Shown here: piece by piece, positions 1-3,000 of the stretch
How positions within the stretch are numbered: position 1 is the first letter of the stretch
Layout of the letters: each line of letters opens with the position of its first letter
Source: a phage
Direction: 5' to 3' (one strand)
Length of the DNA stretch: 57,325 nt
NCBI GenBank assembly: GCA_025497365.1
Contig: GCA_025497365.1_4955.1
Position numbers: made by a program

Positions 1-3000
1 CACGTTGTGTATTATCTGTAAACTTAATACTAACATTGTATTAGCTGTAAAACAGGGCGTGTGGACAACCCGTGGGTATCTGTGGGAAACTAATTTAAAA
101 TTTATGGGAGACAAATTTATGAAAATTTCAGACCGGGCTAAAAGAGCTGCTCTGGAGTTAACAACCGATCAACTCCGCTTTGCTAACCTGTGGTTAGATC
201 GTGTCAATAACGGCTTCAGCAATGCTCAGTGCGTCTTACACGCTTATCCTGGGCATAAAGACCCTGACGCAGCTAAAGTCACCGCACATCGCCTCCTGTC
301 GAACAGGAAGGTGTTGAACTATCTGGACGCGATGGGAAGTCATGCGCTTGAATCTGTCGGGGAATCGTTAACGAGTCGTGTCGAGTGGTGGAAACGAGCG
401 GCAAGCACGGCTGAAGAATTACTGGAACCGTATTGTCAGCGTGTCATCGTCCCTGGTGAAGACGACACAGAAGCGAAACACCTGTGGGTGAACAGTACCG
501 ACGATATCCCCAGCCATCTGCAACAGTACGTAGTTTGCTACAAACGTTACATGCTGGGCGGATACATTCTGGTGACGCGTGAACTGTTCGACCCGAAAAC
601 TCGTGCAAAAGCGTCTGAACAACTGGATAAAATCACCGGGAACAGTATCGACCGTGTGGAACTGTCTGGTGTGGTTGGTAACGTGGTTCAGAGTGTTCCT
701 GAAGGTGCAACTATCGACGACATCGCGCAACTGTATCAGAAGGCGTTGAAATAGGCGGTTGTTCCGGCTTAAATCGTGCCGGAAACCGTTTGCGTTTTCG
801 ATAAACAGGGTTGAGTTGTGCGATGGTACAGGGTATGGTGTTAAAGCCCCTTACGGGGCGTTTTAGAAAGCCCAGTTAGTTCCGGGCGATATTTTACACA
901 ACCACTTCAAAAACTGTTTCACCGTTACCCATCGTGTAGCAGCCATCGTCAGTTTTACGAACATTCCAGACCCTTGTGATAAACAACCATGTCGTCAGTA
1001 TCCAGATCGACAATTGTTCCGATTTTAAAAACACCTAGTGTCAGGTCTTTAGCGCGTTTGATTACTTTCAGTTCCATTTTTCAGTTCCTCACAGTTCGTT
1101 TCAATGAGGTCATTATAGGTTATTTTAAATTTAGAACGAATTTGTAAACAGCTTCTGATAACGTTGAACCCGTGGTAGTTCCATAACAACCCTGTCTGGC
1201 AACCATCCACAGTCGATCGCCTTTTGTCTGTCTGGCAATCATGTCAATCTGAAACTGTTCAATTAAAAACTCAATGTCCGGTGATAAACCGGACATGATT
1301 ATTAGTTGTTTAAGCGAGTTCATAAATTGTTTCGGGATATGTCCAGGTTGCTTTACCGATTACACTCTGGTTTTCATTGTAGAAAACGGAAATTGGAATA
1401 TCATTAACTGTGTCCATCACATAATTGTCACCAACTGTTTTGAAAAATTCATCTTTGGTTACTTTAGTCATTTTCCAGTTCCTCACATTTTGTTGTCTAT
1501 GTGAGTAATTTACAATTCCTTGTGTAAACCGTCAAGAATTATTTTAAATAAAAACCCCGGTTAGTTCCGGGGTAATGTTCATTATTCGCCCAACGCTTCT
1601 TTCAGTAACCGATACGTTTCAGGACATTTATCGGATCCGCGTTCACGTTCATAAGCTGCGCTAATAACATCCCAGTTTTCAATCACGCCTTTAAACGCCG
1701 GACACTTTTCAGCAATCAATGGAAAACTGTTTCTGATTTCCGGTACAGCTTCAACCAGGAACCAGCAACGGCGAAAATCGGAAACGTCAAGGGGTGCTCT
1801 AAACTCCCAGTCGTAACCCATTTCATTACCCGTGTGAATACAGACCATCGTTTTAGAACTTAGTCCGGTTTCACCAGAACATAACCACTGAATAATACGT
1901 TCCTGTTCTGTTTTCATTTCGTATCACCTATCATGAGCAAACAATCTGGTGTGTTAATCCAGAAACGATCACCAACATCCGGGGAAGCATCCCAGGGCAT
2001 CTTTTCAGTTACTTCCAGTTCAAGATCACCACGGGTATTTTCAGCGATAATTTTTACAGGTACACCGTCATAGGTACTCATCGTTTTGCCTCCCCGCCGA
2101 GTGCCACCACAAGTTGTTTAATCAGCGCCTGAAGTTCACCTGTCATTAGTACAAAATCAGCGTCAAATCGTGCCAGAACATCTTCAAGGTCAATATCGTC
2201 ATTCTGTCCGATCAGTCCATCACAGAACTTCACACGGTTTAATGTCATGCTGTCAGTTAGCGTAAACGTTACCCGCTGCTGCCAGTCCAGAGCCAGCTTT
2301 GTAACGACTTTCCCGGCTTCAATATGCGTGGCTATTTCGTCACTGGTTAAATCCTGTTTTTTAACGCGTGCAACACCGCCATCAGTCAGGATTGCTTTCA
2401 GTTCAGCAGAATCACCCATTGTGAAACCTGTTGGCGCGTTTCCTGAACGTACCCACTCCGTTGTTGTCAGTTCAACAGGGTTTTCAGTTGTCAGTGGGAC
2501 TACAGGCAGACTACCCAGACTTTTACGCAGCAGTGCTAATGCATCTTCAGTCCGTTTAGCACTGGACGCATCAACCACGATTAACCCGTTAGTGATATCA
2601 ATCCACAACTGTGTACGACTGTTTTTAACGAATGCTCGTGGTAACAGACTGTGCAATACTTCATCTTTCAGGCTGTCTTTCTCTGTTTTCTTCAGTTTAC
2701 GCGCCTGTTCAGCTTCCAGTTTGGCGATTCGCGCGTTCAAATGCTGTTTAATGACCGGACCCGGAATAATCTTTTCCTGTTTCTGGATGGTCAGCAGATA
2801 TTGCCCGTTAGCCTGGTGAACCAGCGTCTGATGTTGTTCAGTTGCCGGAACCCAACCAGTACGCACCATATCCTGTGAACCGCACGGATTGAATTGAAAC
2901 GCACACAGGCTGTCTTCCAGTGTTGGCAACTGGGCCATTAATGCCATAGGATTAGTCAGACGATAAATAATTGCGTTTTTAAAGAAGTTCATAGTTCAAT

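What the first reader, a model, noticed from the sequence alone, without database searches (positions are those of the whole stretch)
2078..2992. Phage-borne RdgC homologue
The 304-aa product has RdgC hallmarks along its whole length and a central segment that looks very close to enterobacterial RdgC, suggesting relatively recent capture from a host. RdgC binds DNA and antagonises RecA, so a phage copy could dampen host recombination or the SOS response.
Basis: partly seen in the sequence, partly recalled or inferred. Interest (0 to 1): 0.55.

Follow-up and report, generated by a model that had tools for sequence, protein, structure and literature searches.

The report
Phage copy of RdgC, long resident
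This is a real, intact copy of the bacterial DNA-ring protein RdgC carried by a 9NA-like E. coli phage, but the phage lineage has held it for a long time rather than capturing it recently, such phage copies are already annotated in hundreds of genomes, and what it does during infection is still untested.

Summary
Window 2078..2992 (minus strand) is an intact 304-aa ORF that matches Pfam RdgC end to end (E=1e-113) and E. coli RdgC structure 2OWL (E=1e-126, about 65% identity). A central 33-aa stretch is identical to E. coli K-12. The window is a 9NA-like siphophage, 98.7% identical to Sashavirus BDX09P1 over the first 8 kb.

"Recent capture from a host" is not supported:
- Synonymous sites against E. 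coli rdgC are saturated (pS 0.75), and the longest exact DNA match is 18 nt.
- GC3 is 0.44, like the phage and unlike the hosts (0.60-0.76).
- The protein is equally distant (64.6-65.2%) from E. coli, Salmonella, Citrobacter and Klebsiella RdgC.
- The phage copies form their own clade (100% bootstrap) at one syntenic position in E. coli, Salmonella and Klebsiella phages.
- The identical central stretch is the finger and gate region, which is nearly invariant across the whole family.

All ten experimentally defined residues are conserved, and dN/dS is 0.12-0.16. The gene is accessory: 9NA and Sasha lack it. Phage RdgC is already known (PHROG 724, P1 HrdC, 508 phage records). A RecA- or SOS-damping role is plausible but only inferred. 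Ordinary finding, low interest.

The parts
2078..2992 (-). rdgC coding sequence, 304 aa, full-length RdgC family protein
   Evidence: ORF. Pfam PF04381 E=1e-113. NCBIfam NF001462 411 bits against a cut-off of 330. PDB 2OWL E=1e-126. dN/dS 0.12-0.16 against phage orthologues.
2645..2761 (-). Finger domain (E. coli residues 77-115, phage 78-116), including the basic fingertip R98 K99 K101 K102
   Evidence: Domain limits and fingertip residues come from Briggs 2010 (PMC2965237). The residues were mapped and found conserved.
2630..2728 (-). The 'central segment': 33 aa (I89-F121) identical to E. coli K-12 RdgC, ending in gate residues R119 and F121
   Evidence: Alignments. The codon-level test shows no excess synonymous identity.
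2989..3186 (-). Upstream 65-aa ORF whose stop overlaps the rdgC start (ATGA), suggesting translational coupling
   Evidence: Conserved at 94-100% in AVIO78A and PJ16.
1914..2081 (-). Downstream 55-aa ORF whose start overlaps the rdgC stop (ATGA)
   Evidence: Found only in PJ16 among the fetched relatives.
1582..1917 (-). 111-aa gene of unknown function (PHROG 1229), the last gene of the operon. It is present in every fetched relative that has rdgC, and absent with it from the terS-terL regions of 9NA and Sasha.
   Evidence: PHROG 1229 E=1e-39 and no Pfam hit. Co-occurrence table. Homologues in lambdoid and Vibrio phages.
1554..1573 (-). Intrinsic-terminator-like hairpin plus T-run that ends the leftward operon
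   Evidence: Sequence. A terminator is annotated at the equivalent place in AVIO78A and Sergei.
6058..6086 (-). Best sigma-70-like promoter match (TTGACA-17-TAGACT, 10/12) at the head of the leftward gene block between terL and terS
   Evidence: This is a consensus match only. The total number of promoter-like sites is only modestly above the shuffled expectation.
44086..45015 (-). Context: the phage's own Gp2.5-like ssDNA-binding and annealing protein (RecA-independent recombination)
   Evidence: PHROG 7011 E=9e-103. Translation.
45031..46176 (-). Context: PD-(D/E)XK / DUF2800 exonuclease next to the annealase
   Evidence: PHROG 69 E=4e-90. Pfam DUF2800 E=1e-57 and PDDEXK_1.

Best explanation
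The gene encodes a canonical RdgC protein. By homology to E. coli RdgC it should form a ring-shaped homodimer that is loaded onto DNA by a basic finger and then clamps duplex DNA without sequence preference. It is an accessory gene that the 9NA-like phage lineage has carried and kept under purifying selection for a long time. It sits in a leftward operon between terS and terL, joined by ATGA overlaps to small neighbouring ORFs.

During infection its most likely effect depends on dose. It would add to the roughly 1000 host RdgC dimers per cell and compete with RecA, and with RecFOR-mediated RecA loading, for DNA. That would limit RecA filaments on phage replication and recombination intermediates and damp LexA cleavage and the SOS response. 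The phage's own RecA-independent machinery (a Gp2.5-like annealase plus a PD-(D/E)XK exonuclease) would continue to work.

Shown here: family identity, conservation of every tested functional residue, purifying selection, long residence in the phage lineage, and dispensability. Inferred: DNA binding, RecA and SOS antagonism, and any benefit to the phage.
For: Identity:
- Full-length matches to Pfam, NCBIfam, PHROG and PDB RdgC entries.
- All ten residues shown by mutagenesis to matter in E. coli RdgC are conserved at phage position +1: fingertip R97, K98, K100, K101; gate R118, F120; horseshoe Q212, E218, H222, K227 (PMC2965237).
- 114 of 141 columns invariant in 17 cellular RdgCs are strictly conserved in all 13 phage-clade sequences. 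The six fixed residue replacements and one fixed one-residue insertion are mostly conservative.

Selection and residence:
- dN/dS is 0.12-0.16 within the phage clade.
- At least 120 sequence clusters at 80-95% identity lie on contigs of phage size or smaller.
- The gene has the same position in E. coli, Salmonella and Klebsiella phages.
- The phage clade has 100% bootstrap, with subclades that follow phage host genus.
- GC3 matches the phage.

Published biochemistry of E. coli RdgC:
- It counters RecFOR toxicity and is present at about 1000 dimers per cell (PMC1885664; PMC11077077).

Context:
- The phage encodes its own DNA polymerase, primase-helicase, Gp2.5-like annealase and exonuclease.
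- 5425 of 5426 complete E. coli genomes already carry rdgC, so the phage copy is an addition and not a replacement.
Against: No experiment on any phage RdgC was found in the searchable literature. The gene is dispensable. 9NA and Sasha have no copy in their terS-terL block, where every relative that has rdgC carries it. P1 hrdC is non-essential by CRISPRi (PMC10695390). KarinMuster, a relative that carries the gene, is not notably robust against the defence systems tested (PMC11990801). The timing and level of expression are unknown. The promoter call is only a consensus match. The AlphaFold monomer model was poor (pLDDT 49.7), so the fold rests on sequence identity to 2OWL.
Confidence: 0.55

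Rival explanations
1. One reading: the gene, or at least its central segment, was captured recently from an enterobacterial host, perhaps by recombination with host rdgC.
For: The central 33 aa are identical to E. coli K-12. Third-position identity in that 30-codon window is 0.67, against 0.25-0.5 elsewhere, and is slightly higher in E. coli phages than in Salmonella phages. NCBI holds 'Salmonella enterica RdgC' entries at 84-87% identity.
Against: Once conditioned on identical amino acids, codon sharing is not elevated (18/32 against 71/158, p=0.25) and equals that against Xenorhabdus. The longest exact match to E. coli rdgC is 18 nt. Overall pS is 0.75. The segment is nearly invariant across the family. 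The protein is equidistant from four host genera and lies outside the Enterobacteriaceae crown, which has 100% bootstrap. GC3 is phage-like. The checked 'Salmonella' entry sits on a 57-kb contig with phage gene order, and the other such entries are on contigs of phage size or smaller. A peptide-pattern scan of 185,579 species genomes found nothing above 61% identity.
Confidence: 0.03
2. The protein acts mainly on the phage's own DNA and not on RecA. It would clamp or condense replicating or linear phage DNA, protect ends from host nucleases, or stabilise forks and assist replication restart.
For: E. coli RdgC binds duplex DNA non-specifically, has higher affinity for DNA ends, bends and condenses DNA at high concentration, and is tied genetically to PriA-dependent restart (PMC1885664; PMC11077077). 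The phage replicates with its own polymerase and primase-helicase, and no recognised RecBCD inhibitor was noted among the genes scanned (only part of the genome was scanned).
Against: No direct evidence. This reading is not exclusive of the RecA-competition model, because both follow from the same DNA clamping. The gene is dispensable in relatives.
Confidence: 0.2
3. It plays a RexA-like role, acting in exclusion of competing phages or in a developmental switch rather than in recombination control.
Against: This phage shows no repressor or lysogeny context around the gene. No RexB-like partner was noted nearby: no Pfam match and only function-unknown or weak PHROG matches among the neighbours scanned. 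The protein keeps the RdgC-specific finger, gate and horseshoe residues and is 65% identical to E. coli RdgC, whereas RexA resembles RdgC only in fold.
Confidence: 0.05
4. It is an exonuclease, as many database records call it.
For: The Pfam title is 'Putative exonuclease, RdgC'. Relatives are annotated 'exonuclease' or 'RdgC exonuclease'.
Against: No nuclease activity or nuclease domain could be identified for E. coli RdgC (PMC1885664). The name is historical. Only PF04381 matched.
Confidence: 0.02
5. It is a neutral passenger gene or a decaying one.
For: The gene is absent from 9NA and Sasha. dN/dS is 3-4 times higher than in the host genes.
Against: The full-length ORF is intact in every relative examined and in at least 120 clusters. 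dN/dS is 0.12-0.16 at dS up to 1.2. All functional residues are kept.
Confidence: 0.03

Closest known systems
RdgC of other 9NA-like phages (Nonanavirus/Sashavirus): BDX09P1, vB_EcoS_PJ16 gp006, vB_EcoS_AVIO78A gp005, Sergei gp07, SP069 'RdgC exonuclease', Klebsiella phage Kpn BU9
   Same: These are orthologues, with 99.7%, 97%, 96%, 86%, 85% and 81% amino-acid identity. In the annotated relatives (not checked for BDX09P1, which has no annotation) the gene has the same position between terS and terL on the opposite strand and the same downstream 111-aa gene.
   Different: Only small sequence differences. The flanking small ORFs vary between phages.
E. coli chromosomal RdgC (PDB 2OWL; NCBIfam NF001460)
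   Same: Same length and single-domain architecture, with 65-66% identity over the full length. The finger and gate segment is identical, and all mutationally defined residues are conserved.
   Different: The window protein scores 469 bits against NF001460, below the cut-off of 501, about as divergent as Proteus RdgC at 464. The N-terminal 75 residues are only about 40-50% identical. The genomic context is a phage operon and not mak-rdgC-ppnP. Composition is phage-like. Selection is more relaxed.
Phage P1 HrdC (the RdgC homologue of P1-like phage-plasmids)
   Same: A phage-borne, full-length RdgC family protein, 58% identical, with the same conserved residues. It is non-essential for lytic growth (PMC10695390). 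The two group weakly in the tree (54% bootstrap).
   Different: It belongs to a temperate phage-plasmid. It is co-transcribed with the Dmt methyltransferase from a C1-controlled promoter. It is a distinct lineage.
Lambda RexA
   Same: A phage protein with the RdgC fold that binds DNA non-specifically as a dimer (PMC11077077).
   Different: The resemblance is in fold only, and sequence-based fold prediction did not detect it (PMC11077077). RexA works with RexB in a prophage. The window protein is a true RdgC by sequence.

Membership tests
RdgC family (Pfam PF04381) | Full-length match to the family model above the curated gathering score | tested here: met
   380 bits against a cut-off of 25. 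Residues 3-301 match model positions 2-298 of 298.
RdgC family (NCBIfam equivalogs) | Score above the curated cut-off of an RdgC equivalog model | tested here: met
   NF001462 gives 411 bits against a cut-off of 330. The same holds for phage orthologues and P1 HrdC.
Enterobacterial-type RdgC (NCBIfam NF001460) | Score of at least 501 bits, as E. coli (663) and Klebsiella (655) give | tested here: not met
   The window protein scores 469 bits. Sergei scores 462, Kpn BU9 473, Proteus 464 and Xenorhabdus 503.
RdgC family | Gate-interface residues R118 and F120 | tested here: met
   Conserved as R119 and F121. Roles defined in PMC2965237.
RdgC family | Horseshoe-interface network Q212, E218, H222, K227 | tested here: met
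   All four conserved at position +1 (PMC2965237).
RdgC family | Basic fingertip R97, K98, K100, K101 on a finger domain (residues 77-115) | tested here: met
RdgC family | Toroidal homodimer fold | tested here: inconclusive
   The AlphaFold2 monomer from a shallow 22-sequence alignment gave mean pLDDT 49.7, and no fold search was run on it. The fold is inferred from 65% full-length identity to 2OWL. A dimer cannot be modelled with these tools.
RdgC family | Non-specific DNA binding, and inhibition of RecA strand exchange and LexA cleavage | not testable with these tools
   These are biochemical properties of E. coli RdgC, taken from the literature.
Host chromosomal rdgC orthologue (recently transferred copy) | Near-identical DNA, unsaturated synonymous sites, and nesting within a host genus in a phylogeny | tested here: not met
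   Nucleotide identity 63%, pS 0.75, longest exact match 18 nt. The protein lies outside the Enterobacteriaceae crown, which has 100% bootstrap.
Lambda RexA-like exclusion proteins | Sequence membership in the RexA family, with a RexB partner and a prophage context | tested here: not met
   A Pfam scan at E<=0.01 returned only PF04381. The neighbours scanned gave no Pfam hit and only function-unknown or weak PHROG hits. No lysogeny genes are annotated nearby.
Exonucleases | A recognisable nuclease domain or activity | tested here: not met
   No nuclease family matched. No nuclease activity was detected for E. coli RdgC according to PMC1885664.

The most novel reading that the evidence does not exclude
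The phage RdgC is a dedicated dose-dependent anti-RecA and anti-SOS effector, comparable to plasmid PsiB. It would be made during infection to stop RecA filaments forming on phage replication intermediates. This would block RecA/LexA-dependent host responses, such as SOS-induced defences and induction of resident prophages that compete with the phage. It would also channel recombination into the phage's own Gp2.5-like annealase pathway. It may act together with the co-inherited 111-aa protein, or through heterodimers with host RdgC, since all interface residues are shared.
Probability: 0.25. Interest if true: 0.5.

Novelty: already known. Interest (0 to 1): 0.2.

Why it matters
If the inferred role is right, RdgC would join the short list of phage and plasmid proteins that tune host RecA, such as PsiB. 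RdgC homologues occur in 508 phage records and 1236 plasmid records, so one experiment on any of them would inform many annotations. As a genome-scan finding it is ordinary. The gene is already annotated in close relatives, and the one claim that would have made it unusual, recent host capture, fails.

Two practical lessons come out of the work:
- Protein-level identity in the finger and gate segment reflects strong constraint, not recency.
- Database entries named 'RdgC [Salmonella enterica]' at 84-87% identity appear to be phage contigs inside bacterial assemblies (one checked directly), and would mislead a plain BLASTP test of host origin.

Tried and rejected
1. Gene conversion with host rdgC in the central segment. 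Sliding windows showed raised third-position identity, 0.67-0.77 in E. coli phages. The excess disappears when conditioned on identical amino acids (p=0.25) and is matched against Xenorhabdus. Salmonella and Klebsiella phages are not closer to their own hosts' rdgC. Rejected.

2. A 26-nt exact match to P1 hrdC in the fingertip. It covers invariant residues in two genes with similar codon usage and is too short to call as an exchange. Left as a minor curiosity.

3. A plasmid source. tblastn against 72,556 plasmids found 1236 records, none above 65% apart from a mislabelled 1.3-Mb chromosome piece. Rejected.

4. The genome-contig scan for close cellular relatives. The exact-peptide patterns recovered only Morganellaceae and one distant hit, all at or below 61%.

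5. Structure prediction. The alignment available to the tool was shallow (22 sequences at 65% identity or more). Mean pLDDT was 49.7, so no fold search was run.

6. rdgC plus the 111-aa gene as a conserved cassette beyond this phage group. Homologues of the 111-aa protein occur in lambdoid and Vibrio phages, but they are not next to RdgC in the cases where positions could be compared. Not supported outside 9NA-like phages.

7. Neofunctionalisation of the phage clade. Only six fixed residue replacements plus one fixed one-residue insertion, mostly conservative, fall at cellular-invariant positions. No sign of it.

8. Literature on phage RdgC function. Four searches found only annotations and passing remarks. 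The 9NA-like genomics paper (Zeng 2019) and Moore 2003 are not held.

9. tRNA, Rfam and tandem-repeat scans of the window. No tRNA or Rfam match was found anywhere in the window, and no tandem repeat lies near the gene.
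Full report
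OBSERVATION

It is an unambiguous, full-length RdgC.
- Pfam PF04381 matches residues 3-301 to model positions 2-298 of 298, at E=9.7e-114.
- NCBIfam RdgC equivalog NF001462 scores 411 bits against a cut-off of 330.
- PHROG 724 ('exonuclease recombination-associated') gives E=1e-125.
- The solved E. coli RdgC structure 2OWL aligns over residues 2-304 at E=1e-126, and P. aeruginosa RdgC 2OWY at E=2e-65.
- Identity to chromosomal E. coli RdgC is 65-66%.
Phage residues I89-F121 ([33 protein letters not shown]) are 33/33 identical to E. coli K-12 RdgC, while the N-terminal 75 residues are only about 40-50% identical.

GENOME CONTEXT

The window is a 9NA-like siphophage (Nonanavirus/Sashavirus).
- Nucleotides 90-8000 are 98.7% identical to Sashavirus BDX09P1 and 94-96% identical to E. 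coli phages AVIO78A, PJ16 and PDP46.
- rdgC lies in a roughly 5-kb block of small leftward genes between the small terminase gene (about 120..754, plus strand) and the large terminase gene (6163..7926, plus strand).
- Four ORFs are joined by ATGA stop/start overlaps: a 65-aa ORF, then RdgC, then a 55-aa ORF, then a 111-aa ORF. A hairpin plus T-run terminator follows at 1573..1554.
- The best sigma-70-like site on that strand is at 6086..6058, at the head of the block. It is a consensus match only.
- Elsewhere the phage encodes a family-A DNA polymerase, a primase-helicase, a helicase, a Gp2.5-like ssDNA-binding and annealing protein, a PD-(D/E)XK (DUF2800) exonuclease, a Dam-type methyltransferase and a ParB-like protein.

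IS IT A RECENT CAPTURE FROM A HOST? NO.

Seven lines of evidence agree.

(1) DNA divergence. Against E. coli rdgC (locus L001, in its native mak-rdgC-ppnP context), nucleotide identity is 63% and the proportion of synonymous differences is 0.75, which is saturated. A blastn search of 5,426 complete E. coli genomes found rdgC in 5,425 of them. No chromosomal match exceeded about 70% identity, and no match covered 80% of the gene. The longest exact nucleotide match to E. coli rdgC is 18 nt.

(2) The central segment. In 30-codon windows the central region does show higher third-position identity to E. coli (0.67) than the rest of the gene (0.25-0.5), so I tested for a gene-conversion tract. Among codons that encode identical amino acids, the same codon is used in 18 of 32 central positions and in 71 of 158 elsewhere (Fisher p=0.25). 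Against Xenorhabdus the central figure is just as high, at 15 of 28. The apparent excess comes from near-total amino-acid identity in a stretch rich in two-codon residues (Lys, Glu, Asp, Gln). It does not come from shared DNA ancestry.

(3) The segment is conserved everywhere. The core [24 protein letters not shown] is nearly invariant in P1 HrdC, in a lambdoid phage RdgC, and in Xenorhabdus, Providencia and Proteus RdgC. It corresponds to the distal finger and the gate residues R118 and F120 defined by Briggs et al. 2010 (PMC2965237). Along the whole protein, phage-versus-E. coli identity follows the conservation profile of cellular RdgCs (Spearman 0.74, p=2e-4).

(4) Equidistance. The window protein is 65.2%, 64.6%, 64.9% and 64.6% identical to E. 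coli, Salmonella, Citrobacter and Klebsiella RdgC. Those host proteins are 90-93% identical to E. coli RdgC. It is 59-60% identical to Morganellaceae RdgC. The Salmonella and Klebsiella phage orthologues are not closer to their own hosts' RdgC.

(5) Phylogeny. I built a neighbour-joining tree with Kimura distances and 200 bootstraps.
- The 13 sampled 9NA-like phage sequences are monophyletic (100%).
- Their subclades follow phage host genus: Klebsiella 76-100%, Salmonella 100%, E. coli 95%.
- The nine Enterobacteriaceae chromosomal sequences are monophyletic (100%) and exclude the phage clade.
- The phage clade joins the enterobacterial side rather than Morganellaceae with 68% support, and groups with P1 HrdC with only 54% support.
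- Synonymous divergence inside the phage clade is as large as that between E. coli and Klebsiella rdgC: dS is 1.18 between the window and Klebsiella phage Kpn BU9, and 1.19 between the two hosts.

(6) Composition. GC3 of the phage gene is 0.44. Other phage genes have 0.34-0.40. Host rdgC has 0.60 (E. coli), 0.65 (Salmonella) and 0.76 (Klebsiella).

(7) No close cellular or plasmid copy.
- A peptide-pattern scan of one genome from each of 185,579 species recovered nothing above 61% identity.
- Plasmids hold RdgC genes in 1,236 records, none above 65%.
- The 120 best protein-database hits, at 80-95% identity, all lie on contigs of 62 kb or less.
- Several of those hits are labelled 'RdgC [Salmonella enterica]'. 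The one I checked sits on a 57,208-bp contig with full 9NA-like gene order. It is a phage genome inside a bacterial assembly.

IS IT FUNCTIONAL, AND IS IT STILL AN RdgC? YES.

- dN/dS within the phage clade is 0.12-0.16. That is purifying selection, though 3-4 times more relaxed than in the host genes (0.02-0.05).
- All ten residues whose mutation affects E. coli RdgC are conserved: fingertip R97, K98, K100, K101; gate R118, F120; horseshoe Q212, E218, H222, K227 (PMC2965237).
- Of 141 columns invariant in 17 cellular sequences, 114 are strictly conserved in all 13 phage-clade sequences. Six carry a fixed replacement, mostly conservative (V9I, R14N, P48A, E71Q, K87R, A272L), and one is a fixed one-residue insertion. 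There is no sign of a changed function.
- Against the enterobacterial-type NCBIfam model NF001460 the protein scores 469 bits, below the cut-off of 501. It is about as divergent as Proteus RdgC (464) and far from E. coli (663).
- An AlphaFold2 monomer built from the shallow alignment available was poor (mean pLDDT 49.7) and was not used. The fold is inferred from 65% full-length identity to 2OWL.

THE GENE IS ACCESSORY

- Phages 9NA and Sasha have no rdgC in their terS-terL region. Sasha lacks almost the whole leftward block.
- P1 hrdC is non-essential for lytic growth by CRISPRi (PMC10695390).
- The BASEL study found that KarinMuster (Bas82), a relative that carries the gene, is as sensitive to restriction-modification systems and to Old as other small siphoviruses (PMC11990801).

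HOW IT MOST LIKELY WORKS

Published work on E. coli RdgC supplies the mechanism.
- RdgC is a toroidal dimer that encircles duplex DNA. The basic finger loads it onto DNA (PMC2965237).
- It counters toxic RecFOR-dependent RecA loading.
- It is present at about 1000 dimers per growing cell, so its effect depends on dose (PMC1885664; PMC11077077).

Every host already has rdgC, and the phage copy keeps all the interface and DNA-binding residues. The simplest reading is that infection raises the RdgC dose. That would keep RecA off phage replication and recombination intermediates and damp SOS, while the phage uses its own RecA-independent annealase and exonuclease. This is inference.

The main alternative uses the same DNA-clamping activity to protect or organise phage DNA. 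RdgC prefers DNA ends and condenses DNA at high concentration. A RexA-like exclusion role has been suggested for RdgC homologues next to cI in lambdoid phages (PMC12315714). It fits this phage poorly, because there is no lysogeny context here. The 'exonuclease' label in many records is historical. No nuclease activity was found for E. coli RdgC.

WHAT IS ALREADY KNOWN

Phage-borne RdgC homologues are well documented as annotations.
- tblastn finds them in 508 of 50,697 phage records, including P1 (HrdC), ICP1, F116 and many Vibrio phages.
- They have their own PHROG family.
- The orthologue in close relatives is already annotated as a recombination-associated protein or RdgC exonuclease.
- I found no experimental study of any phage RdgC in the searchable literature.

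VERDICT

The 'recent capture' interpretation is rejected. The functional suggestion is reasonable but untested. The finding is an already known kind of phage accessory gene, so interest is low (0.2). The most novel reading still open is a dedicated anti-RecA and anti-SOS role during infection. I give that about 0.25 probability and moderate interest if true.

Noticed in passing
L024 (GCA_008687945.1 SQUZ01000012.1, 57,208 bp); proteins P0034, P0037, P0038, P0041, P0051, P0057: Proteins labelled 'RdgC [Salmonella enterica]' at 84-87% identity are on contigs of phage size or smaller (most 53-57 kb). The one checked has complete 9NA-like phage gene order. These look like phage genomes inside bacterial assemblies, from contamination or a carrier state. 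Such labels would mislead a BLASTP test of host origin.
   Followed up: partly
window 44228..44415, inside the gene at 44086..45015 (-): A 30-bp tandem repeat, perfect over its first four copies, lies inside the Gp2.5-like ssDNA-binding and annealing protein gene. It encodes a (PAAAPVAAPT)n Pro/Ala-rich linker before the C-terminal tail, and its copy number is probably variable.
   Followed up: partly
window 1582..1917 (-): A 111-aa protein of unknown function (PHROG 1229, no Pfam hit) is present with rdgC in all 9NA-like relatives examined and is absent with it from the terS-terL regions of 9NA and Sasha. It is at least as conserved as RdgC (82-96%). Homologues occur in lambdoid phages (HK022, 434, Stx phages), PY54 and Vibrio phages, but not next to RdgC there.
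   Followed up: partly
window 755..6162: terS and terL are separated by a roughly 5.4-kb block of small genes on the opposite strand. The block's content varies between relatives. Sasha keeps only three of the small genes, so most of the block is dispensable.
   Followed up: partly
window 4794..5282 (-), 5848..6024 (-), 1120..1486 (-): Several ORFs in the block (162 aa, 58 aa, 67 aa, 58 aa) have no homologue in the fetched relatives. The 162-aa ORF (PHROGs and Pfam) and the 67-aa ORF (PHROGs only) gave no family match; the two 58-aa ORFs were not scanned. They may be strain-specific cargo.
   Followed up: no
window 2969..2992 (-), RdgC residues 1-8: The N-terminus MNFFKNAI is shared with Morganellaceae RdgC (Xenorhabdus, Proteus, Providencia), not with the Enterobacteriaceae form MLWFKNLM, even though the protein as a whole is closer to Enterobacteriaceae.
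   Followed up: no
window 2678..2703 (-), rdgC nucleotides 289-314: A 26-nt exact match to P1 hrdC (GCGCGTAAACTGAAGAAAACAGAGAA) lies in the fingertip, against a 58% identical background. It covers invariant residues in two genes with similar codon usage, so it is probably chance, but exchange between mobile elements is not excluded.
   Followed up: partly
window 54350..55117 (+) and 52856..53536 (+): A ParB-like protein and a Dam-type DNA methyltransferase are encoded in a phage group described as virulent. Together with the phage-sized contigs in Salmonella assemblies, this raises the question of an episomal carrier state.
   Followed up: no
window 19001..19052: A 21-bp tandem repeat of 2.5 copies, 93% matching, lies in the structural gene region.
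   Followed up: no
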